A DNA stretch of 64,000 bases from Podarcis vaucheri. Lineage: Eukaryota. Both the position numbers and the translations under genes were made by a program. The notes beneath the pieces were generated by a model that made no database searches, was not told where the DNA came from, and saw only the letters and a program-made list of their open reading frames with translations. Positions 5,161 through 54,481 of the stretch are shown piece after piece; the stretch's first letter is position 1; each line of letters starts with the position of its first letter. The stretch lies in NCBI GenBank assembly GCA_965113315.1, contig OZ220364.1. The stretch is one strand, 5' to 3'.

Positions 5161-6374
5161 TTTAAGTGTGTGTTTTTACTGCTGTAGATACTGAGCAATT
5201 CCAGCAGGAACACTCAAGTATCTTTATCTGTCTCCCAGAAATATAGGCACTCTAGGCAGTTGCTTAGTTTGCCTCTATGGTTGGTCAGTCCTGACTGGTG
5301 AAGGAGGAGCTTGGGGAATGGCTCCAACATTGGTCAACATCTGTTCTCTCACCAATTAGTGGTACTAGTGGGAGAGGATACCTGAAGCTCTGAAGCAATA
5401 AAACCCAGTGTGGTATCTCCACTCGAATGAAGAGCTGCTGTATTTTGTAGCTAACAAGTAGTACCAGTAACAAGTAGTACTTGCAATATGGAGTCTTCCA
5501 GTTCAGGATTTTAGTTAGCTAGCCAAGAGCTCTTTGAGGATACCCCATTCAATTTCCCCTCCCCTCTGATTTTCCATGTTGTTTTTCCTCCTGCCATCAG
5601 GCAACATTCCATGGCTACTGAGCAAGCTTAGTCCTCATTGAACTGTTGAGTCCTCTGCAACACACACTGAGGGCTATGCTTGCTCAGGAATGCTAGCTGG
5701 TGGTTGTTGCAGGCCTGGGGGAGAATACAAAAATGGGAAATTATGGTTTTAAAAAAGAAGCTTTTTGTCCTTCTGCAAACCTGGGGTTTTCTGTCACACC
5801 TGCTTGTGTGTGGATTATACTGTTTTGGCTTCATAAGCCAATATTCAGAGAATTCAGTTAGCTGTTAGTATATTATTTTCTGCCATTTGCACTCTAGAGT
5901 CAGGGAAGGACAGCTTTTGAGTGAATTGCAGCTTCATTTCTCAAATGAGGAACAGGTTGTTTGGTAGCTGCAAGAAGGACCTGCAGCTCCCAAGCATGAT
6001 CTAGTGTGGCAGTGGTGGTTGCAACCACAGGAGGTGGCTTGAGGTAGGCAGCAGCCTTTGCTTTGTGGCAAATTGTATGTATGTGTAAGAGAGAATGTCA
6101 GCAGGTAAATGGTAAGTTGTATTGTTCTACTCACAGGTATGCTCATTCCAAGTTTTTAAATGTTACTTTTGTGCCTGCATATCTGCATATGTAAGTTTGT
6201 TCATGTTACCGTTGCTAATATGCAATGGGGGGGGGAGGCGAAGGGGTGTGCCACCATTTGCCATGTTGGTCCCTCTCTCTAGTTACTTGAGGTCACATAG
6301 ACTCTGGGCCTAAGCCTTGGTTTGCAGCAAGATGATAATTCTCAGCATTATTGAGCATTTCACCAGTTACTTAA

Positions 6375-30153: not shown

Positions 30154-30537
30154 CAGTAGATTCTGTGTTTGAAGTAGATTCTGTGTTTGAAGTCCATTGA
30201 GTCCTTTAATCTTTGGTCAGTTGTTCCACATCTGTCCCTCTCAGCTCCCCCAGATCTGGCATCCCATGTGTCGTGACCCCATTGCTTCAGACATGGTATA
30301 AAAATGTATCTTTCTGCCCAGGCTTTCTCTGACCCATAAGATTGCCCCCTTTTTTTACTTACATGAATTCTCTGAATTCTTGTTTTTTCTTGGTACTGTT
30401 TTACTTGTTTTATGTTGTATTTCTATTTTAATTATGTTGTTTATTGTTTTTTAATGTTGTGCACTTCTTAGAGGCTTTTCAAATACTAAGAGGTTTATAA
30501 ATGTTTTAAATAAATCCATCTGCTTTGCCTAATCCAG

Positions 30538-33600: not shown

Positions 33601-36556
33601 TAGTTCCAAGACACTAGAACATTTTATTATGTACTGCAGAGTGAGGCTGAGTAGCACTGTATTATTCTTTAGATTTGATTTGTGGTTGTACACTTGCCAA
33701 AAAAAAAAGTTGGCCACTTCTGCTTTAAAGCATCTTAGGCGTTTTATCGCTGCCGGATGCTTGCCTGCTATGCCTGTCTGCTGGAGTTGGACTGATAAGA
33801 CCTTCTGTGCAGTCTTGATCCAACATCAGCACAGCTCCTAGAAGACGATCCAGTATGTAATAGAAAGTGTTGCTTTCAGTACAGCTGTGGTGATGAGTTA
33901 CAGTGCAGAAAGGGGGCATCTGTTTGCAGGGAAGGAGGTGAATGGCGTTGGTTCTCCTTTACTTTTTTGCATGAGCTTTGCATCTGGTAATCAAACCTCA
34001 AAATGACAGAGGGAGTTATGGCGGGATGAAGCTGCTAAATGCTGCACATCTACTGCCCAAAATACGGACAGGCTAGAACTTCCTAAAACCAGAGTAGGGA
34101 ACTTGTGGCCCTCCAGATGCTGTTGGACTACAACTCCCATCATACCTAACAGTTGGTTATACTGGCTGGTATTGGTAGGAGTTGAAGTCCCCAAAACATC
34201 TGGAGAACTGCAGGTGCTCTGTACCTGTCCTAGAGCCTTCCATCTCTGTACCTGGTTCCAGTTCTTCTGAGTGAGACTGTGTGTGGCCAATGGGAAGAGG
34301 TCAAAATGGAAGGCTCCCCACCCTGCCCTAATCCAATAAGCAATGCTGTCTCAGTTCACCAAGCCTATTGCAGCCGATCTGTATAAGTAGGAAACAAACC
34401 TCCCCCACTGCCATTTGTAGGCCTATGACATATAGCCTTCTTTATCCCTACAGATTAGAAGAAGGCCATAACATTTTTAAACAAAGTAATGTAACACTGG
34501 GTGATAACTGCCACACTGCATGTAGTTTGCCTTCTCCAGTTTGGCAATTTCTGTCCCTGTCCTAGCACAGGCACTTACATACCTTTCTTGTCGCAGTGCT
34601 GTCATGATGCTGGTGTTCCTATAAACATTCTGCCAGCCCTTTTGTAGCACTGCCCTTTCCCTTGGTACTCTCACACATGCACCTTCCTACTGCCACTTTC
34701 CATTGCAAAACTTACTCTCAGCTTGTGTCCAGATGCCAAATTCCTGTGCTGTGGTCTTACTCTGTTGCTGTAGCACTCAACCATGAGTACAGGAAACTTT
34801 TATAGGAGAAGCCATGTACCTTTTCCACCAGGTCATCCCTTTCCTGCACTTCCCTCCAGACTCCAGATGTGCATACTGCTGGGGTTGTCCTGGCCCTCCT
34901 CCTGTCACTTAGCTCTGGGTTTCGGGGAGAGGAGCAGATGACTGGAGCAGTCTTGGACTTGTCTTCCAATCTCCAAAGTTAGTTTTGTCTGGAGGCAGCC
35001 TATTCAGAGTGACTCCTCTCTCTCAGTAATACACTCTTATGGATGTCACACTGCAGAAAACATCCCCATGATAATCGTGTCCCTTGGCTGCCTAGGTGGG
35101 CTCAGTGCTGAACTCTGCAAGAGAATTATTGTTGTTTGGGTCTTTTTGAGGAGGACCCGTAACAGTTCCCAATACCCAATCAGAAAACTCCTGATTCTTC
35201 CTCAGAAATCTTGGCCTATCGTGATGAGAAGTGGCAACAGCCTTTAGATCAGAAATATGTGTAGGTTGTGTGATTGCTGGGCAAGAATACTAAGCTGGGG
35301 TGATTTGGTGGAAACTGATGCCTTTCTTATCAGTTAAGGAGGACTGATTTTGGAGAACCAAAGGTCTAAAATAAGGCATTCTGAAAAAGTCAGGTTAGTG
35401 GGAATGTTTTTAGAACCATAGCGCTGCAAGGGATGCAGCTTCAGCATGTCTGCCAAAGGCCCAGCCAGCCTTTGCTTAAATACCTCCAGTGAATCAGAGC
35501 CCATCACTTTCCAATGCACCCTGTTCCACTGTCAAACAGCTCTGTGACCACCTATGATAAATTCCTTCCCTAATTCTCTCCCACATCCACACCCACATAT
35601 ACAAATATAGTTGCCTTTCTCTCCATCCAAGGTAAATGGTGATTCATAGCCTTTATACCAGTTCGAAACAATGCAAGAATCAAGACGCTGAATGTTTCCA
35701 TTTCAGCAGTCACATGTCTGACCAGAAGCTACTCTGATCAAGAGAGAACACCCATGGCAGCAGCACCTACCAACATCATTTACCAAATAAAAAAGGCAGT
35801 ACAGCCATTCATATTCTATTCATTAGTCCCTTTCAGCATGACACTTTTCTCATTAGGCTTCAGAGTTAGCATACAAAGAATCTCCCAAACTTTGCTTCCA
35901 TCCAAAGAAATGGCAAAAAATTCATTTCTTGGAATTCCCAACATTGTAGGTATGTCCAAGGTTACAGACCTCTATTTCTCCACTTATCAAATCCTGCTCA
36001 GGGCTTCCTCTGCAGTTTCCCCTTGCCTTACTCTGCCTCCTTTGGGCTGGGTTGCGCTGGCAAGGCCAAAGTCGCGAAGACGAGGGGGCCCAGCCAATCA
36101 GTGAGAGCAGCTCTGTGTGTAGGGGTGACTGTCCCCATTTGGGCCGTGCACAATGTTGCAGCTTTTAACAGTGGCTGAGGCTTGTTGCCGCATGTTTTGG
36201 GTTGGGGGGGGAGTGTGTGGCCTTGCTGTTGTCTCCGCTGTGCTGCTCAACTCATCCCTACTGAGAACTGTCCGTCCCTTCGTGGCGTCTATCTTTGTTT
36301 ATCTTGGTTGTCAAGAGCAACCAAATATCTGAGACTATGAGCTTCCAGCATTGGGCTGGGCTGGGCTGGCCTTGTGCATAAATGACCAACATTAACCTGA
36401 TTGTTCTCTCCTTACACTCCTCCCTTCAGTCCTTTACCATATTCTGGTTCCTCCACCCTCCCCTTTGGTCCTATATTTCCCTTTGCCTTTATATTTATTT
36501 CCTTCTCTCTCTCTCTTTCCCGTTTCTGTGTGCACCGTCTTGTATGGCTGCGACAG

Positions 36557-36592
36557 TGGAGGAAGGCGCGACCGCGAGGGAATAATCTCAGT
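36557..36592 (+). CDS. CACNA1A: CACNA1A exon 44 (36-nt cassette)
   Basis: cag|TGGAGGAAGGCGCGACCGCGAGGGAATAATCTCAGT|gtatgt = WRKARPRGNNLS, matching mammalian RRRGRPRGNNLS. Confidence 0.92.
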
Positions 36593-44814: not shown

Positions 44815-45056
44815 CAGTGGTACCTTGGGTTACATACGCTTCAGGTTACATACGATCCAGGTTACAGACTCCGCTAACCCAGAAATAGTACCTCGGGTTA
44901 AGAACTTTGCTTCAGGATGAGAACAAAAATCGCACGGCGGTGGCACGGCAGCAGTGGGAGGCCCCATTAAATAAAGTGGTGCTTCAGGTTAAGAACAGTT
45001 TCAGATTAAGAACGGACCTCCGGAACGAATTAAGTACGTAACCAGAGGTACCACTG
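44815..45056. mobile_element. Tc1/mariner MITE, family A copy 3
   Basis: TA-cagtggtaccttgggtta...taaccagaggtaccactg-TA. Confidence 0.9.
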
Positions 45057-45476
45057 TATATTCTGTTTTGCCCAGGAAGGCAAATAGCAGCTTTAAGAGT
45101 CCAATTTTCATCAAGAAAATGGCATCATAAGGTTTTAAACCACCACCACAACACCAGTACTATCGTACTCTCTTCCATGGCTGCTGTTAACATTTTAATC
45201 AGCTGTGGAAGATCCTGTTCACAGATCTCCCCCATCAGTCTTGATTTAGCCCTGAGTAGCTGCTTGAGCTTTTGAAAAGACTAGAAAAGCAATATACTTT
45301 GGTATTTGAGTCCTGGGCACATGTTCCTTCAGGTTCACAACATCAGCCATGTAAAACGTTGCCTTCTCCTTTGTTGCTTAGATGCCAGGGAAGGATGGGG
45401 ACATATGTTGACATATACAGAATATTTCTAACTGAAACATTCAACCTTGAACTGCCTTCTTTCTTCTTACTGGCAG

Positions 45477-45724
45477 GGCTGGGCACGGACCTCAGCATGA
45501 CCACACAGTCAGGTGACCTACCTCCCAAAGAAAGAGACCAAGAACGAGGCAGGCCAAAGGACCGGAAACACCATCACCATCACCACCACCATCATCACCA
45601 CCACACATCTTCTGACAAAGAGCGGTACTCACAAGAGAGGCACGAATATAGCCGGCCTCGCTCCAGAGATCGACGTTGGTCTCGCTCACCCAGTGAGGGC
45701 CGAGACCACATGCCTCACAGGCAG
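45477..45724 (+). CDS. CACNA1A: CACNA1A exon 46 with poly-His tract (12 H, 45569-45604)
   Basis: 248 nt, cag| and |gtgggt; [30 protein letters not shown](H)12TSSDKERY...[13 protein letters not shown]. Confidence 0.96.
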
Positions 45725-46049
45725 GTGGGTGTGGCTTTCCATTCCATGCTGTGCCCCTAGGGATTGATCCAGGTGTGTCCAGTACGGAGAGAGTCTCTAC
45801 TCTTAGGGAATCAAGCTCCAATTACCCACCCTGTTATTAGTTTCTGGATCTCTCTGATGGAACTTTATGATCCTGACTGGCCCAAGCAAGACCTGTAGGT
45901 TCTATACATACAGCAGCTGCACATGAATGGACATCCCATGTATTGCTAAGGGACCACCACATTACTAACATAGTGCAGTGAGAATGCTGGGTGAGCATGC
46001 CTGCACTGAAGTGGCTGCACCATTGTAAGCACACTTCTGAATTTAACCA

Positions 46050-46770
46050 ACATCAGAACTTGCAGAGTCTGACCAAGCGTGATCTAGCTCAGCATTTTGT
46101 CCAACAGCAGCCACCCAGATGTCTCTGAAAGTTCACGTGCAAAGTAGGAAGATGGTAGCCACCCTGTGTGATTTGTCTCCAGCATCTGGTACTCAGAGGT
46201 AAACTTCCTCTGAACATAGGGGTTCCATTTAACTATCATAGCTATTGACAAATCCCCCATGCATTTGTCTAAGCTTTGTCTTTCTTCACATCAGTTGTGA
46301 TTTTGTGAACTTTGACAATTTCCACTATAGTATTTTTTTTTCTAAACTAAAAAGGCCCCAAAACTCATTTGCTTCCTCTTATAAGGAATGCCAACTTGCC
46401 ATTTTCTATCTGTTTTACATCTCTAGGATAATCTTTTGACATGGGAGACCCTAACTCTTCACAGATTTCAAAACATACCATAGATTTATATAATGGCATT
46501 TCAATATTTATTTTATTTTTATTCCTTTCCTTTCCTAATTATTCCTGGCACATTACCATGGCACATGGATGTTTTCTGTAAGCTTTCCACTATAGCTCCA
46601 AAATCTCTTTGCAAAGCAGTCACAGCCAATTCAACTCAATCAGCATACATATCAGCAGTCAGATTTTTCCCCTCCTGTGTTCACAATTTATGACTTATTT
46701 GTAATGAGTTTAATAAGCATTCTGTTGCCCATTCACCCATTTTGGAGAGACCTTTTTTGAACTCTTCACC
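46050..46770 (-). mobile_element. Old CR1 LINE fragments
   Basis: Degraded CR1-like RT and 3' sequence (ttttttctaaactaaaaaggcccc..., ttccactatagctccaaaatctctt); boundaries approximate. Confidence 0.5.
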
Positions 46771-49497
46771 ATCTGGGTTTTGCTGTTCTAAAAATGAGAG
46801 AAGAAGAGACATTTAAACTAGTTTAAGACTTTGGTATAGATATGTTTATATAAGCAGAAGCTTCCATTGCTGAGATCCAGAAAAGATGGGTGTGGATGAC
46901 GATCCCTTCTGGATCAACATTACAACTACATACAAGGGCTCATTTCCAGTAAATGGTACAGAGGAAAACTCCCTATTGCATTTTGCCCCAAGTGATATCC
47001 TCCTTTCCTCCCATTTCAGGAATTGCTTCCTCAAAAGATACCCTCTTACTTCATACCTGTCCACCCTTCTTCACAGACACAGAAGGCATTTCACACAGAG
47101 TCTTGTCTGATTCTGATCACCTATTGAGTTACACACACACACACACAATCACAACGTGTGTGCACAGACAAGTATTGCAATGTCTGTGAAACCCATTTAC
47201 AATATCCCTGAGGTATCACAACAGGATACCACAAGTTCCTGTGGCTTGGACAAGGCTGCTTAGGCTATGTTCCTGCTAATTATACACATATCATGGACAG
47301 CATATTTCATGGCACTTATATAGAGAAAATGGGTGGAAAATTCTGTCACCTTTATTACTGGAGTACATCTTCTGATCAAAATAAGACAATTGAATAGTAT
47401 CAAAAAAAATTAGTTCATTCAAAGCTGAGTTCACACCTAAGGAAGTATGGGTTTGCAGGGTTTGATTTTCACAGGGCTTAGTCTGGATTCATTCTATTGC
47501 AGTGTTTGTATGTCTACAGCTTTGGAGCTGGAGCAATGCCAGGACTGCCAATTTAGTAGTGCAGTTGGCTCCCTTTATATATTAATGCAGCATGTTACCC
47601 CATCTCCATGCCAAATATTATATCCTGTAATGGGCCAAGAAAACAAAGGCTATCAAACTCACACTGAAGCTCACAACTACATTCCTTATTTATCTTCATA
47701 GTGTGGTACAAAAGCCAAAGAAATAATAAAGCCTACCACTTTAATTATAGAGAAAATTGAACAACATGAGGGTAGAGCCTCAAGACAGCGGTTGTACCCA
47801 GCTTTATGTGAACTGCATCAAAATTTTATTGGGTGAATGAGAATACAATTACTCGATGAGACTCTTCTTAAGGTCCTTTATTCCTTTGTTTTCCATTTAT
47901 TCCCCCCACTGCTGCACGCCGCCCCGCCGTTATCACACACGAAGTCATTTTCTTTGTTCCTATTTGTTTCCTTTGGACAATTTGGACGCTTTACTCGGGG
48001 TCTCCTGGCCAATCTGCCTTTATTTACATGTTTATTTCTGTATCCGTTGTGCTTGGCTCTGCTGTCACGGCGAGGGGCGGGCGCAGGTAAGATGGTTGGT
48101 GAGCAGAGAACAAAAATTCAAACCAATCCAGCGGATGGCCCTGCCTAGCTCGCTGGCCTATTTCTCCAGTGTCTGTGGTGTGACCCCTTTATTGTTACGC
48201 TGGTGGCACTGAACTCTCTGGGGTTTGTGAATCTGGAAAGTTTGGAATGAAGCTGCACCTGAAGAGACAGGCACACATGTAAGCTGTGCATGTCACATCC
48301 AAGCAAAACAAGAAAAAAGCAGAAAGACATGCATAAACTGTAGGCATGCATGCAATGAGCGTATATAGAACACAGGATATATGGCAGGCATGGGGAACAT
48401 GTGGCCTTGCAGATGTCAGCTCCCATCTTCCCTGACCATGGGCCATGCTAGCGTAGGCTAATGGAAGTTGTTGTCTACCAATAGCTGGAAGGCTTCATAT
48501 TTCTCATCCCTGGTATATGGGAGAGGGATGCCCAAGGGTGTGACAAGACTCTGAGGTACTGATAGATTTTCTCCAGCAGGGGATCAGTCAAATAGCAGTT
48601 TCAGGAGATATTTAAATTGGAATGGTGAAGTATTGGATCCCCTCCTCTAGTGTAATGGGCCCAAGCTATGTCTCTACAACTGCTTATTTGTTTAAAGAAG
48701 CATCAAGATATACAGTCACAGATCTCCTGACCTAGTCCAGTTTAGCCCTAAAATTCTATCCTAGGAAATTTCAAATTATGCAGTAATATATTTTGAACAT
48801 TAGGCATCTTCTCATAAAATTGACTTGATTTTCAGTAATGTATTCAGACTGCAAATTCTGGTTCTTCTGCAAAATTTAGTAAGTTAAAAGGAAAAGAGGA
48901 CACTAAAAGCATTATGTAGAATATGTATTATGGAGTTTGAACTGGGATAAGAAGCTATATTGGGAATGGAGATACAATCTATGATCAGTGGGACCCCCTT
49001 GAATTGTCAACAGAAAATTGCCCCTGTGTTTTAAAGTTCTTCCTGCAGCTCTGAGGGATTCCTCTTGTACATCCCCAAAATAAGAAGTTGAGAATCAAAG
49101 GATTCTTGCAGAATACCTATATTTGGTTCTAGAAATCTAAGTTCTGTGGCATGCAGCTGTGGTCTCTTGTAGATGGTGGTTTTCAGCTACACATACCAAA
49201 ATTAGATACAGACACATATGATACACAAACACACAAAGACACCCCATACAGATTTTGAGTCTTATGGCATACAAAAAGTTGTAAGTACAGCTAATACTGA
49301 GAGATGCAGGGCATGCATGTGTGTTTTTAATACAAAAGGATGCATATAAATTGTGTAAGTAAATATTCACAGCATACTAAAATACACAGTACAGGCACGG
49401 CATAACAAATAATATGCAGGTTTGTATGGCATACATAGGCATTCATAGATGCATGTATGGTGCAACATGATACAGAAAGAGATATTTCATTGAAATA

Positions 49498-49851
49498 CAG
49501 TGGTGCCCCGCAAGACGAATGCCTCGCAAGACGAAAAACTCGCTAGACGAAAGGGTTTTGCAGTTTTTGAGCTGCTTCGCAAGACAAATTTCCCTATGGG
49601 CTTGCTTCGCAAGACGAAAACGTCTTGCGTTTTTTGCAAGTTTGTTTCCTTTTTCTTAACACCGTTAATACAGTTGCAACTTGACTTCGAGGAGCAACTC
49701 ATAGAACGCGGTGTGGTAGCCTTTTTTGAGGTTTTTGGTGATTTTTGAAGCTTTTCCAAAACTTTTCCGACACCGTGCTTCGCAAGATGAAAAATTCGCT
49801 AGACGAAAAAACTTGCGGAATGAATTAATTTCATCTTGCGAGGCACCACTG
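49498..49851. mobile_element. Tc1/mariner MITE, family B copy 2
   Basis: TA-cagtggtgccccgcaagacgaa...ttcatcttgcgaggcaccactg-TA. Confidence 0.9.
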
Positions 49852-52800
49852 TACGTATGTGTGAAATTCCCAGCAATGTGGTTATGTACATATACATGCA
49901 CACACATGAGCACATTCAGAGCATACAAAAACTTGCTTTGTAAACCTAGGATACATTTACTAATTATGATTCCTGTTTGGTTTGGTAGGCTTTTCCTTCC
50001 TGGTGCTACTTCAATTACTTTCTCTGTCTTGGTTTCTCTCTCTCTCTCTCCCCCTCTCTCCCCTGGTCTTCTTCTGACCATGAATCACTGATCATCAGGC
50101 CAAGAAAACTGTAGCGTGGCAGCCACTTTCAAGTACCAAGCAGCATGGAGCTGCTTCAGTGGTTAGCAACACATTCTCCCTTAAAATATGTTTCCATATT
50201 AGATCGAGGTTAATTATAAATAATAATAAAAAACCAGCAAGCAGTATTCTCTTCTATTTTAACTTGTCCTTCATATTTAACTCTCATGGGCTGGAGTTCT
50301 CTCAGACTTCTACAGTAAGGCCTTCTTCTTTTTTTTACTATGCCATGAACCATTATTGTCCTCCTGTCTGAACAGACCTCAAGACCACCTCCAGCTCCCC
50401 TTTGAGGTAAGTACTTCATTCTCTTCCTTTTTTAAAAAAGTATATATCCAGAGATAACTTTCAACAACAATGGACTTAACCTCTCAGCTCTTTGAGATGC
50501 AGTCTCCCCTTTCTTCTTCAGATTTATTCAATCTTAGGTCTGTAGGTTTCCAGTTCAGCCTAGATTCTTCCCAAAGACTATTCACCATGTCTGTGACACA
50601 ACTGCTCACCTAAGCAGATTAGTTTATACATCTAATTGGACCTTCTTCATTTATCTCAGATTCTTGTCACCTTTTGCCAGGCTTATGTAAATTGCAATGC
50701 CTGCACATCTGGGTTTTGGTAATGTTCAGATCTCTCTTAAAGAAGTTTCCACAGTTCCTGCTTGGATATTGTGGTATAGTCTTGTGACACTGTCCTGCTG
50801 CACTTGAAGAGCAGCTTTTACCACGCTCCACCTTTTGAGGAGTGACTGCTGACTGGCTCACAGATTCACTTTATTCACAGCTATGGAGCGATTTCCTTTT
50901 CATTGCTGGCAAAGAGTGGCTGGTCACTTGAACGATGCCACAGAAGCCTCTTCTCACAACTTTCTGTGGTGCAAGACCCAGGGCAACCACATTGCAGGTT
51001 TTTCAGGAGCCTCTCTCCAGCATTCTAGTTCTATAAGGCTGAACTCAAGCTAGATTTCCACTACTCTCAAACTACTCTTCTGAAGTTCTCTTGTCCCAAT
51101 TGGCTGATCACAGATGCAAAATGATTCCATTTGAATGACCAACTTGGCTTCACCTTCCTGGGTGATTTACAGAGTCTATGTGTATACATCTATCACTTTT
51201 TATCATCAACAGCTGGAGTTTAGGGGCCTTATTATCCTGTTGAGGGCCATCCACGTGGGGTCTTTTATCACTAGAGAGGTGCCAACTCCCATGAAGGAAA
51301 CAGCTGCCTCTGCATGTGTGGCTACATCATTGTCTTTTCACTTTTTGTTGGTTCAGCCAATACTAGACACTATCAGACGCTTCTCATAGCAATAACACCG
51401 AACCATTCAGCCATGTTATAGAACTTTTTTTAAAAATCACACAAAGTTTGCTTTCTGAGTGTGCTTTATCTGAAGAGACCCATCACAATGAGTTCAGCCT
51501 CTTTGAAGGAAACTGATAAAAATTTTGCTTACAGGGAAAGTGACAACAGGAAGGGTAGAAGCAACTTACCAATGGTTACCTAATGATAGCAGCAACAAAA
51601 AATTATTCTTTTAGTTGGGGTGAGGTGAAGGATATGATCTGAAAGTTGTTAGTTCAGGATTCAGCTCTGCCAGGTGCTTCTTAGAAAGCTACCCCCAATT
51701 CTCTTTTTTTTTAGCCTTCCTCAACTTTGAACTTCATATTTCTTACCTATAGAGCCAAAGGCACCATATAAACTCTCAAGAAAGGGGCATTAGAAGCGCC
51801 TGGAAATGTAGTGCAGCCTATCTTTGACCAAGATGCAAAGAGACATTGCTGCTGGCTTCAATGAACACTGCATTTTTTGCTGCTCAGTACTTTGCAGTTC
51901 AGATGTTGAAACATATTGTTTCCTGCCTTAAGAAACTGCTAATCAAATTTAACTTTAAAAGCACTACCTATTTAATATGAAATTATTTCTAATATGCCAT
52001 AGAACCTTATAGCACTGCACAGCCAAGTGTGTGTGTGTTCCTGATGGAAAAATATCAGTGACTATCCTCTTTGTTCCTCATTTTAAACCATACTGGAACT
52101 TATTCTCTCATCCATATTCCTAGACAGAGGTAGTTGTGCTAGAGTCAGAAAATTTTCCTAGCCTGCTCTGTGTCATTTGCTTTACTGTTAGATTTAGTGA
52201 CAATGTGATAATTGGAGGTCGCATCATATAGTACATATAGTACATACCCTGGTACCCAGCTTACTCATTTCCATTCTCTTGACAGCGAGGGAAGTACTGT
52301 ATCAGTATTTTCAACACACACCTCCTCATTCACTTGCCATGGAACAAAGCCCCTATCCAAGCCAGACAGATGAAAATCCCTCTCTTTCATTATCTTGCCC
52401 GTCTGTCTGATCTGCAGTCATTTTACTACAAATGTGTACTTTTTGAAGTTCATTCACTAGTTCTCTTTTTCTGGCTGCTATAGTCTGGCACAAGACTTAA
52501 TGGGGGTGGGGGTTTACACACAAGTTTTACATCTGTTACTAAATCAATCTAATGTGACATATACAGTGCTCAGAATGCATATTTTATTTCTTCATATTAA
52601 CAAGATTCATTTGTGGAACAAATAATATGACATAACTCATAAAAACTCATTTGAGCCTAACAGTCCAAAGAATTGGTGAAGTAAGACAATTAGTAAGAGA
52701 TGAGCCCTTCAGCTTCACAACTGGAGTAAACTGCTCAGTACTGACAATATAATAAAGGACGTTGCCCGGTGGTCTCGGTCTTGTGCATTTAGGGTTTTGT

Positions 52801-53800
52801 TTTGCTTTGTTACTGTCTTCCACATGTTATTCAAGTAGGGTTAAGGACTGGGTGGAGCTTTGGTCTGTTGTACTGCAATCCATCAGGCAATCTGGTCAAG
52901 GAGGCCACTTATGTGGGTGGAGGAGTTATCATCCATAAATAATGTAGAGTCCAGTGTGCACGAAGTGGGAAACTGCCTCTGAGGTGAACTCTCATTTGGT
53001 CCAGGGCTCCACCAGACTGGGGAGCCCACACTGTTGCCTGCCTGCCTGAACTGAGAACATGCACTCACAGGCCTTACACCAAGAGCTTAAACATTTCACA
53101 GGTACACAACAGCCTCCCTCAAGAGTTCGGCTCTGTTCCAAACTTTTCCAGACCCAGTGCTCTCCCTCACCTTTCCTTGCTAGATTCCCACTTCCACCCC
53201 GTCACTCTGTCCCAACCTCCTCCTTCCTTTTTCAACTCCAGATATTTTTCTTTTCTTATTTTCCCTCCTAACCACTTTGATAACATGCAATATGACCCGT
53301 GCTTTGCAAAATCAATCCTGCCCCGCCTCTCTCCTTCAGTTTTTGTTTTCTTAAATAAATTGACATCACCCTTTTGTTTTGTTTCCTTCCCCTCCCCACC
53401 CCCGCCAAAAAAAAACGTGCAAGTAATTTTTAAAGCTTTTTGCTGCTTTTTAAACCCTGGAACTTATAAAAACTCCATTTCTCATTTCTCTTTCTGCTTT
53501 TGTTTTGTGTTGGATCCTCCCCCCTCCTATTATTATTATTATTATTATTACCCTTCTTCGTTGTCCCCCTTGCCCTCCTCTCCCTCCCCCCTGATGTGGC
53601 TGTCGCTTTAATTATTATTTTCCCCGCCGAATTATTTTCGTTCCTTTGCCTCCATTCCCCCCCCCCACTCCTCTTGCCAACTTTGTCCATGTCTGTGTCA
53701 CCTTCACTCCTGCCCCGCCACTTTTCCTCGTGTCTCTTCTTGGTTGATTTTCCTTGTATATTTTTTCTTTTTGATTTCCTTTGTTTCGATTTTCGTGTAG

Positions 53801-54481
53801 GGCAGTAGTTCCGTAAGTGGGAGTCCGGTCCTCTCAACGTCTGGCACCAGCACCCCGAGGCGAGGACGCCGCCAGCTCCCACAGACCCCTTCTACACCCC
53901 GGCCACATATCTCCTACTCCCCAGTGGTCCGTAAGGCCGTCAACACGGGGCCCCAGCAGCAGCAGCAGCCGCCGCCGTCCGTGCACTCGGGCCGGATCTC
54001 CAGCCCAGCCCCGAGGCGCTACCCGTCGCTGCCCGCCGAGCACCACGTCTCCGAGCGTCGCAGCAGGTCTCCGGCTATGGAGCGGCACACGGTCCCGCCG
54101 CGGAACGACTCGCCGCGGGCCTACCGACACGCCAGCAGCCGCTGGTCGGCCCCGCACGTCTCCGAGCCGCACCCGGGGCCCCGGCACGGCAGCGGCTACT
54201 ACCGGAGTCCGGACTACGCGGGCCCCGGCGGCGAGGAAGCCTTCCCCTATGAGACAATGCAGCAGCGGGAGCAGCAGCAGCAGCACGGGAGCAGCTCAGG
54301 ACGTTCGCCCAGAACTTCCCGGGTGGGCAGCGGCTCGTCCTCTCTCTCCCCCTCCAGGCATGGGCGGCGGCTCCCCAATGGGTACTACCACTCGCATGGA
54401 CCAGCCAAGTCGCGTGGGACAGGATCACGCAAAGGACTGCACGAACCTTATAGCGAAACCGATGAGGACGACTGCTGCTAA
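53801..54481 (+). CDS. CACNA1A: CACNA1A exon 47 coding part (long C-terminal isoform, GGCAG included)
   Basis: gtgtag|GGCAGTAGTTCC; [45 protein letters not shown]...[17 protein letters not shown], 226 codons plus TAA; CpG-rich. Confidence 0.95.

What the first reader, a model, noticed from the sequence alone, without database searches (positions are those of the whole stretch)
47900..48360. Candidate 12-nt neural microexon (GRAQ) or recursive splice site in intron 46
Seen: a CpG-retaining non-repeat island with no AG from ~47946 to 48072, TGC motifs just before the acceptor, then gag|GGGCGGGCGCAG|gtaaga (48075-48086) and downstream TGCATG at 48287 and 48347. The segment is phase 0 and inserts GRAQ between ...HRQ and exon 47, or gives a new end ...HRQGRAQ* on the short isoform. 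Established: UGC near the acceptor plus a strong donor plus downstream RBFOX sites is the SRRM3/4 microexon signature. Alternative: cag|gtaaga is a zero-length recursive site. Either could influence the GGCAG choice.
Basis: partly seen in the sequence, partly recalled or inferred. Interest (0 to 1): 0.75.

Follow-up and report, generated by a model that had tools for sequence, protein, structure and literature searches.

The report
Hidden stop exon in calcium channel

Summary
The gene is CACNA1A (Cav2.1); intron 46 spans 45725-53800.

The 12-nt GRAQ exon was not seen in use. It is absent from 3 of 3 junction reads and 1 of 1 junction contig of a close relative and from 338 of 338 vertebrate proteins (no lizard or crocodilian was named). 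Its acceptor is a rare GAG. Recursive splicing fits poorly: the intron is short, it is the last one, and no pyrimidine tract adjoins the CAG.

Those same molecules join exon 46 to a different exon, 50376-50406 (31 nt, 2.3 kb downstream). It adds nine residues and a stop, a second route to the short channel that bypasses the known exon-47 acceptor choice.

Verdict: the 31-nt exon is very likely real (0.9). The 12-nt block is probably a real but mostly skipped splice element, either a minor microexon or a decoy. The reads are too few to exclude minor inclusion. No earlier scan note describes either element.

The parts
45477..45724 (+). CACNA1A exon 46 (histidine run; ends in phase 0)
   Evidence: tblastn with turtle Cav2.1, 90% identity; covered by spliced contigs in X4 and X11
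47911..47930 (+). C-rich, CpG-rich segment predicted to pair with 48067-48087 and cover the 12-nt candidate (lead only)
   Evidence: duplex -32.4 kcal/mol, pair probabilities 0.5-0.96 in longer folds; 45 of 1000 shuffles as good; absent from the minimum-energy fold of 47900-48110, z 0.67; one pair would be broken by the G>T at 47926 in organism A
47945..48072 (+). 128-nt U-rich AG-exclusion zone with UGC at 48050 and 48060
48075..48086 (+). Candidate 12-nt exon (GRAQ): weak GAG acceptor, strong donor at 48087; not seen spliced
   Evidence: acceptor -3.0 bits on a matrix from this gene's own acceptors, whose leave-one-out range starts at -3.3; donor 11.4 bits; no joint
48087..48098 (+). 12 nt between the first donor (48087) and a second donor (48099); would read VRWL; tandem donors as in decoy exons
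   Evidence: 2 of 38 strong donors in 253 kb have such a neighbour 7-12 nt away
48279..48352 (+). Third donor (48279, 7.6 bits) followed by the two TGCATG motifs (48287, 48347); an exon ending here would contain a stop at 48210-48212
   Evidence: the stretch from 48292 is as divergent in organism C as other intron pieces (4 substitutions and 5 gap letters in 153)
50376..50406 (+). Expressed 31-nt alternative exon: CAG acceptor, GTAAGT donor; encodes TSRPPPAPL and a TGA stop (50403-50405)
   Evidence: loose end behind 45724 in 3 reads of X21 and 1 contig of X4 (depth 14.2) equals window 50376-50405, which occurs once in the window; single copy in the genome; donor 11.8 bits; AG-free zone 54 nt, UGC 35 nt upstream
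53801..54481 (+). Exon 47 long reading frame (distal C-terminal tail, ends DDCC), behind a 365-nt AG-free zone
   Evidence: its joint with the 31-nt exon is inferred, not seen

Best explanation
Spliced RNA of a close relative joins exon 46 of this Cav2.1 gene directly to a 31-nt exon at 50376-50406 whose tenth codon is a stop, which is predicted to give a short channel without the exon-47 tail, while the 12-nt block at 48075-48086 is skipped in those molecules and is likely a real but rarely used SRRM3/4-type microexon. Shown: the joint from exon 46 to 50376, its frame and stop, and the skipping of the 12-nt block in the 3 reads and 1 contig seen. Inferred: the 31-nt exon is spliced on to exon 47; the mRNA escapes nonsense-mediated decay because the stop lies 1 nt before the last junction; the protein loses the distal PDZ-ligand end whichever exon-47 acceptor is used. 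Inferred for the block: a distant U-rich tract, UGC motifs and a strong donor allow inclusion when SRRM3/4 is high, but the GAG acceptor keeps it low, so GRAQ is at most a minor or cell-type-restricted insert. My odds: 31-nt exon real 0.9; block functional in splicing in some way 0.7; block a productive 12-nt microexon 0.35.
For:: loose end behind 45724 in X21 (3 reads, at least 2 start places, agreement 1.0) and in X4 (one 860-nt contig running from upstream exons through exon 46, depth 14.2); the two runs are from different studies. Its 30 printed letters equal window 50376-50405, flanked by a CAG acceptor (+0.2 bits, inside the range of this gene's real acceptors) and the strongest donor in the intron (11.8 bits). 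The contig's loose part is 59 letters = 31 + 28, the length expected if a 31-mer graph path leaves the exon at 50406 and merges with another path ending in AG (my inference). For the block: rank 1 of 64 for donor strength; TGC 13 nt before the AG against 14 nt in the control microexon e24a (L004:8974-8985); strong donor, distant pyrimidine tract and UGC are the features named in 10.1101/2024.09.17.613571 (passages) and PMC12871342 (passages); lower divergence than the rest of the intron in organism A (p = 0.026, or 0.042 without the repeat-like 36-nt piece).
Against: The read evidence is thin and from organism A, not the window's own species; tissues are not on record and X4 is only guessed to be RNA. 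X23 laid 0 reads and X11 had no piece over the end of exon 46. The joint from 50406 onward was not seen. Direct exon 46-to-47 molecules were not listed, but a filter drops human-like reads unannounced, so no inclusion level can be given. No protein among 338 shows TSRPPPAPL, GRAQ or VRWL after exon 46. Against the microexon: 0 of 3 reads (95% upper bound 63%) and 0 of 1 contigs; X4 contig 13 crosses 47854-48226 unspliced at background depth 3.8; 40 of 43 automatically picked acceptors of this gene have C or T at -3, and the 3 with G look like mis-picks; no strict branch-point match in the AG-free zone; a human brain list holds two CACNA1A microexons, 12 and 6 nt (PMC4317164 supplement file 2), which I take from recall to be e24a and e31a. 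The divergence test is post hoc and rests on single low-depth contigs.
Confidence: 0.5

Rival explanations
1. The block is a non-coding decoy exon: its splice signals engage the ends of intron 46 without being spliced, slowing intron removal or steering the choice between the 31-nt exon and exon 47.
For: Decoys lie in introns over 1 kb, are conserved, are spliced poorly, and three of four studied have alternative donors 7-12 nt apart (PMC7373989 passages). Here donors at 48087 and 48099 are 12 nt apart, which 2 of 38 strong donors in 253 kb show. All candidate acceptors are weak (-3.0, -7.1, -11.0 bits). No joint was seen.
Against: The sizes quoted for those decoys are 60-87 nt; here the only plausible exon is 12 or 24 nt and keeps the frame. 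Intron retention is not shown: intron pieces have depth 2.4-3.8 against 14.2 for the exon in X4 and 2.3-3.9 against 236 in X11, on a measure the tool calls poor.
Confidence: 0.22
2. The CAG at 48084-48086 followed by GTAAGA is a recursive splice site; exon 46 is first joined there, regenerating a stronger donor, with a cryptic exon ending at 48098 or 48278.
For: The regenerated donor (11.4 bits) would outcompete both downstream donors (6.7, 7.6), as required in PMC6224609 (passages). It would leave no trace in mRNA, as seen. Closely spaced AGs compete according to the preceding base (PMC1431707 passages).
Against: Mouse-brain recursive sites lie in introns over 51 kb, in the first two introns, with pyrimidines in the 20 nt upstream (PMC8797253 passages). 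This is the last intron, 8,076 nt long, and the CAG scores -11.0 bits, below the median AG of the intron (-7.9). No joint to 48087.
Confidence: 0.08
3. The block is a small internal promoter and 48087 is the donor of an alternative first exon, giving short transcripts that cover only the exon-47 tail.
For: CpG retention, GC boxes at 47919 and 48075 and CCAAT at 48009 and 48123; a strong donor with no good acceptor is what a first exon looks like (established knowledge).
Against: No loose end behind 48086 or 48098 and no excess depth over the block in X4; X21 has no read on 47946-48213. The 128-nt AG-free U-rich tract is not explained. The motifs are short and were noticed after the fact.
Confidence: 0.08
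4. The block is a chance arrangement with no role, and the 31-nt exon is splicing noise or the start of an alternative last exon rather than a cassette.
For: No protein, paper or paralog supports either element. About half of AG-free zones of 100 nt or more can arise by chance (PMC1431707 passage).
Against: Noise would not be the path kept in the main contig of one study and the only listed joint in another. If the exon were terminal the predicted protein end would be the same, since the stop lies within the letters seen. The block is rank 1 of 64 and less divergent than its intron.
Confidence: 0.12

Closest known systems
Cav2.1 +47 / -47 (long / short C-terminus) splice choice at the exon 46-47 boundary
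   Same: Same intron and same predicted outcome: a stop right after exon 46 removes the exon-47 tail (PMC9864995 passages). Among 326 proteins examined, 248 continue with GSSSV and 25 end at exon 46. Only a short C-terminus was recovered from chick (PMC5958201 passages).
   Different: The known choice is a shift of the exon-47 acceptor. Here a separate 31-nt exon brings its own stop and nine new proline-rich residues, and would override the acceptor choice.
SRRM3/4-dependent neural microexons, including Cav2.1 e24a (12 nt) and e31a (6 nt)
   Same: 12 nt, frame-keeping, strong donor, long U-rich AG-free zone, UGC 13 nt before the AG; e24a in this genome has a 98-nt zone and UGC at 14 nt.
   Different: GAG instead of CAG acceptor; no inclusion seen; no trace in proteins of other vertebrates, whereas e24a-type and e31a-type inserts do appear in the same protein set.
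Decoy exons (OGT, SNRNP70, SPTA1, SF3B1)
   Same: Mid-sized intron, tandem donors 12 nt apart, poor or no splicing.
   Different: Much shorter; retention of the intron not shown; deep conservation not testable here.
Vertebrate recursive splice sites / RS-exons
   Same: AG directly followed by a strong GT donor, with weaker donors downstream.
   Different: Short last intron and no pyrimidine tract next to the AG.

Membership tests
SRRM3/4-dependent microexon | Very short, frame-preserving exon | tested here: met
   12 nt, phase 0, no stop
SRRM3/4-dependent microexon | Strong 5' splice site | tested here: met
   11.4 bits on a recalled frequency table, not MaxEnt
SRRM3/4-dependent microexon | Pyrimidine tract set back from the AG, weak 3' context, UGC between branch point and AG | tested here: met
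   128-nt AG-free zone, UGC at 48050 and 48060, acceptor -3.0 bits (features)
SRRM3/4-dependent microexon | Usable acceptor and branch point | tested here: inconclusive
   GAG acceptor; 40 of 43 picked acceptors of the gene are CAG or TAG; no strict branch-point match
SRRM3/4-dependent microexon | Included in neural mRNA | tested here: inconclusive
   0 of 3 reads and 0 of 1 contigs; tissue not on record
SRRM3/4-dependent microexon | Conserved across vertebrates | tested here: not met
   0 of 338 proteins with an exon-46 end; met only weakly at DNA level in one close relative; lizard and crocodilian proteins were not among the named rows
SRRM3/4-dependent microexon | Inclusion depends on SRRM3/4 | not testable with these tools
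   needs a minigene or knock-down
Vertebrate recursive splice site | Regenerated donor stronger than the downstream donor | tested here: met
   11.4 against 6.7 and 7.6 bits
Vertebrate recursive splice site | Pyrimidine tract and strong acceptor directly upstream | tested here: not met
   -11.0 bits
Vertebrate recursive splice site | Very long, early intron | tested here: not met
   8,076 nt, last intron (criterion)
Vertebrate recursive splice site | Upstream-exon-to-site joints and saw-tooth depth in nascent RNA | tested here: inconclusive
   none seen, but depth far too low
Decoy exon | Alternative donors 7-12 nt apart in an intron over 1 kb | tested here: met
   48087 and 48099
Decoy exon | Host intron is retained | tested here: inconclusive
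   patchy intron contigs at low depth
Decoy exon | Blocking the decoy donors lowers retention | not testable with these tools
   needs antisense oligos
Short (-47) Cav2.1 isoform | In-frame stop before the exon-47 reading frame | tested here: met
   TGA at 50403-50405, tenth codon after exon 46, within the letters read
Short (-47) Cav2.1 isoform | Made by the exon-47 acceptor shift | tested here: not met
   made by a separate exon at 50376-50406
Short (-47) Cav2.1 isoform | Protein is made and lacks PDZ binding | not testable with these tools
   needs proteomics or expression

The most novel reading that the evidence does not exclude
This reptile lineage has built a new two-part switch in the last intron of Cav2.1: a neuron-regulated 12-nt microexon or decoy, hidden in a GC-rich RNA stem, competes with a 31-nt stop exon and so decides, cell type by cell type, whether the channel keeps the tail that anchors it at the active zone. 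This would be an independent solution to the long/short choice that mammals make by an acceptor shift and that governs polyglutamine exposure in SCA6.
Probability: 0.15. Interest if true: 0.7.

Novelty: new variant of a known kind. Interest (0 to 1): 0.45.

Why it matters
The long/short choice at the end of Cav2.1 changes inactivation and membrane expression (PMC9864995 passages) and removes the extreme C-terminal motif that RIM binds (PMC7456537, abstract start in a search listing); in people it decides whether the SCA6 polyglutamine is in the channel (PMC5684673 passages). A separate stop exon would show that the short form has been reached by a second route, and its new proline-rich end could be a binding site (inference). 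The result also corrects the lead: anyone testing this intron should look at 50376-50406 first. It is so far a lineage-level splice variant of a well-known gene, not a new kind of system.

Tried and rejected
Proteins: three homology searches, one cluster listing and one representative search gave 350 proteins; 338 have an exon-46 end and 12 do not; none continues with GRAQ, VRWL, TSRPPPAPL or the 142-nt reading. Searches listed only the best 120 of 1019 and of 579 hits, and at most 15 members per cluster. No named row is a lizard, snake or crocodilian, so the closest annotations were not seen and either exon may already be in a gene model there.

Runs: no RNA holder was listed as on record; 14 were guessed RNA and 4 raw RNA runs were added by species label. 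Of 24 runs, 4 were laid; X23 laid 0 reads and is no test.

Paralogs: the last introns of CACNA1E (L025) and CACNA1B (L032) show no similarity to the block or the 31-nt exon beyond one 21-nt pyrimidine-tract match at E 0.036.

Metagenome pattern scans: 0 hits and 1 chance hit with 17.5% flank identity. Rfam: nothing near threshold. The bacterial promoter scan does not apply.

A long-range duplex between 48062-48092 and 53315-53340 (-36.3 kcal/mol) was rejected as unremarkable: 6 sites as strong in 253 kb, about a 1-in-6 chance per intron of this size. A 142/154-nt exon from the AAG at 47943 was rejected on its acceptor (-7.1 bits). The control microexon e31a was not located in this genome.

Literature: searches listed no report of either exon; subscription papers are mostly not held. 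The Irimia 2014 microexon paper was not held under the id tried; bioRxiv supplements are closed, and file 1 of PMC4317164 was unreadable; such lists could bear on the microexon claim. PMC7555146 and PMC12149502 were searched for passages and gave nothing on exon 46 or 47.

Full report
Gene and setting. The window holds the 3' part of CACNA1A (Cav2.1). tblastn with a turtle protein maps about exons 32 to 46, including both copies of exon 37; exon 46 is 45477-45724 and the exon-47 long frame is 53801-54481. Intron 46 is 8,076 nt. The genome has 1.61 billion bases. The long form ends DDCC, an ending found in 42 of 252 such proteins, the 30 printed ids being turtles, birds and one unnamed member of a bird cluster, so the organism is likely a reptile; 'lizard' is my inference and comes from no call.

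Observation. The block matched only itself in the genome. For a chance control I scanned 253,400 bases of the sense strand (53.4 kb of the window plus 200 kb upstream). Of 64 AG-free zones of 90 nt or more, this one is followed by the strongest donor, 11.4 bits against 8.7 for the next (recalled frequency table). The same scan picks up the known microexon e24a (98-nt zone, CAG acceptor, TGC 14 nt upstream) and alternative exon 44.

Reads. Four of 24 listed runs were laid on 45400-49400. No joint was listed within the stretch: none to 48075, 48087 or 48099. X4 contig 13 crosses 47854-48226 unspliced at depth 3.8, like other intron pieces. But 3 reads of single-cell run X21 and one 860-nt contig of X4 (depth 14.2) leave exon 46 at exactly 45724 with the same loose letters. 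Those 30 letters are window 50376-50405 and occur once in the window. They follow a CAG and are followed, one base later, by GTAAGT, the strongest donor in the intron. The exon is 31 nt, single-copy, and in the exon-46 frame reads TSRPPPAPL then TGA. The contig's loose part is 59 letters; 31 plus 28 is what a 31-mer assembly gives if the exon is spliced at 50406 to a sequence that another AG-ending path also enters. Limits: organism A, not the window's species (0.83 of exon-47 words shared); tissue unknown; X23 laid nothing; X11 did not cover the junction; human-like reads may have been dropped, so the absence of direct exon 46-47 molecules gives no inclusion level; 0 of 3 leaves up to 63% inclusion of the 12-mer open.

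Proteins. Of 350 proteins retrieved, 338 have an exon-46 end, from sharks, bony fish, lungfish, coelacanth, amphibians, turtles, birds and mammals. None continues with GRAQ, VRWL or TSRPPPAPL, although inserts at e24a and e31a are seen in the same set. No lizard, snake or crocodilian was named in any listing. So neither exon is a pan-vertebrate annotated isoform, but annotation in the nearest group was not seen. A human brain micro-exon list has two CACNA1A entries, 12 and 6 nt; that they are e24a and e31a is my recall.

Anatomy of the block. Scored on a matrix from 43 automatically picked acceptors of this gene, the GAG gives -3.0 bits, at the bottom of the real range; the CAG at 48084-48086 gives -11.0; the AAG at 47943 gives -7.1; the 31-nt exon's CAG gives +0.2. 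So the GAG, weak as it is, is the best acceptor of the block, and the U-rich tract ends just before it, as in SRRM3/4 targets. A second donor lies 12 nt after the first, an arrangement shared by 2 of 38 strong donors and described for decoy exons. A third donor at 48279 is followed 8 nt later by the first TGCATG; an exon ending there would hold a stop. GC boxes and CCAAT motifs allow a promoter reading, without support from reads. A local stem could cover the 12-mer, but its significance is marginal (45 of 1000 shuffles; 33 equally strong partners in 253 kb) and organism A has a change in one arm. In organism A the block differs at 3 of 373 bases against 14 of 494 in the other intron pieces (p = 0.026), a weak, post hoc sign of constraint. 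The last introns of CACNA1E and CACNA1B share nothing with it.

Mechanism. Shown: exon 46 is joined to the 31-nt exon, skipping the 12-mer, and the stop follows nine codons. Inferred: splicing on to exon 47, escape from decay because the stop is 1 nt from the last junction (established rule of about 50 nt, recalled), and loss of the distal tail whichever acceptor is used. For the block I commit to a rarely included SRRM3/4-type microexon (0.35 on its own), ahead of a decoy (about 0.22), a recursive site or a promoter (about 0.08 each) and chance (about 0.12); it works like such a microexon in anatomy but fails the conservation test and is unproven for inclusion, so I do not file it as a member. 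The recursive reading fails two defining features.

Comparison and novelty. The long/short choice itself is known and is made in mammals by an acceptor shift at exon 47; only a short form was recovered from chick. A separate stop exon in intron 46 was not found in seven literature searches or in the scan's own notes. What I saw of papers: passages of PMC7555146, PMC12149502, PMC5684673, PMC12871342, 10.1101/2024.09.17.613571, PMC6224609, PMC5958201, PMC9864995, PMC1431707, PMC8797253 and PMC7373989; a supplement search and file list of PMC4317164; a search listing of PMC7456537. Exon numbers and the names e24a, e31a, 37a and 37b follow recalled human numbering.

Verdict. Observation confirmed, interpretation partly supported. 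The solid result lies 2.3 kb outside the given coordinates: an expressed 31-nt stop exon, a new variant of a known kind. Interest 0.45.

Noticed in passing
window 50376-50406 (+): Expressed 31-nt stop exon, outside the given coordinates; now the main result.
   Followed up: yes
window 54470-54481 (+): The long form ends DDCC, not DDWC. Of 252 proteins with such an end, 42 have DDCC (printed ids: turtles, birds) and 209 DDWC; the listed RIM ligand ends in WC, so PDZ binding may differ in this group.
   Followed up: partly
window 53434-53799 (+): 365-nt AG-free zone before exon 47, the longest in the window; suggests a distant branch point and a slow last intron.
   Followed up: no
window 36428-36592 (+): Alternative exon 44 (36 nt) has a 125-nt AG-free zone, a TGC just before the acceptor and 7 CpG nearby, an anatomy like the block's.
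   Followed up: no
L004:8974-8985 (+), G000:C10: The 12-nt microexon e24a of this gene, with a 98-nt AG-free zone and TGC 14 nt upstream; used as control.
   Followed up: partly
window 49494-49853: Element of about 360 nt with 24-nt terminal inverted repeats (92% complementary) and high CpG, likely a non-autonomous DNA transposon; a similar-looking element lies near 44817-45057.
   Followed up: no
protein P0246 (axolotl isoform X11): Continues after exon 46 with a different 26-residue end, unrelated to either candidate here: another lineage may have its own extra exon in this intron.
   Followed up: no
window 30339-30470 (+): 129-nt, 64% T, AG-free zone ending about 66 nt before the exon-43 acceptor; possibly an alternative upstream acceptor.
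   Followed up: no
window 6105-6112 (+): The only other pair of strong donors 7-12 nt apart in 253 kb (10.5 and 9.7 bits), about 300 nt before an exon.
   Followed up: no
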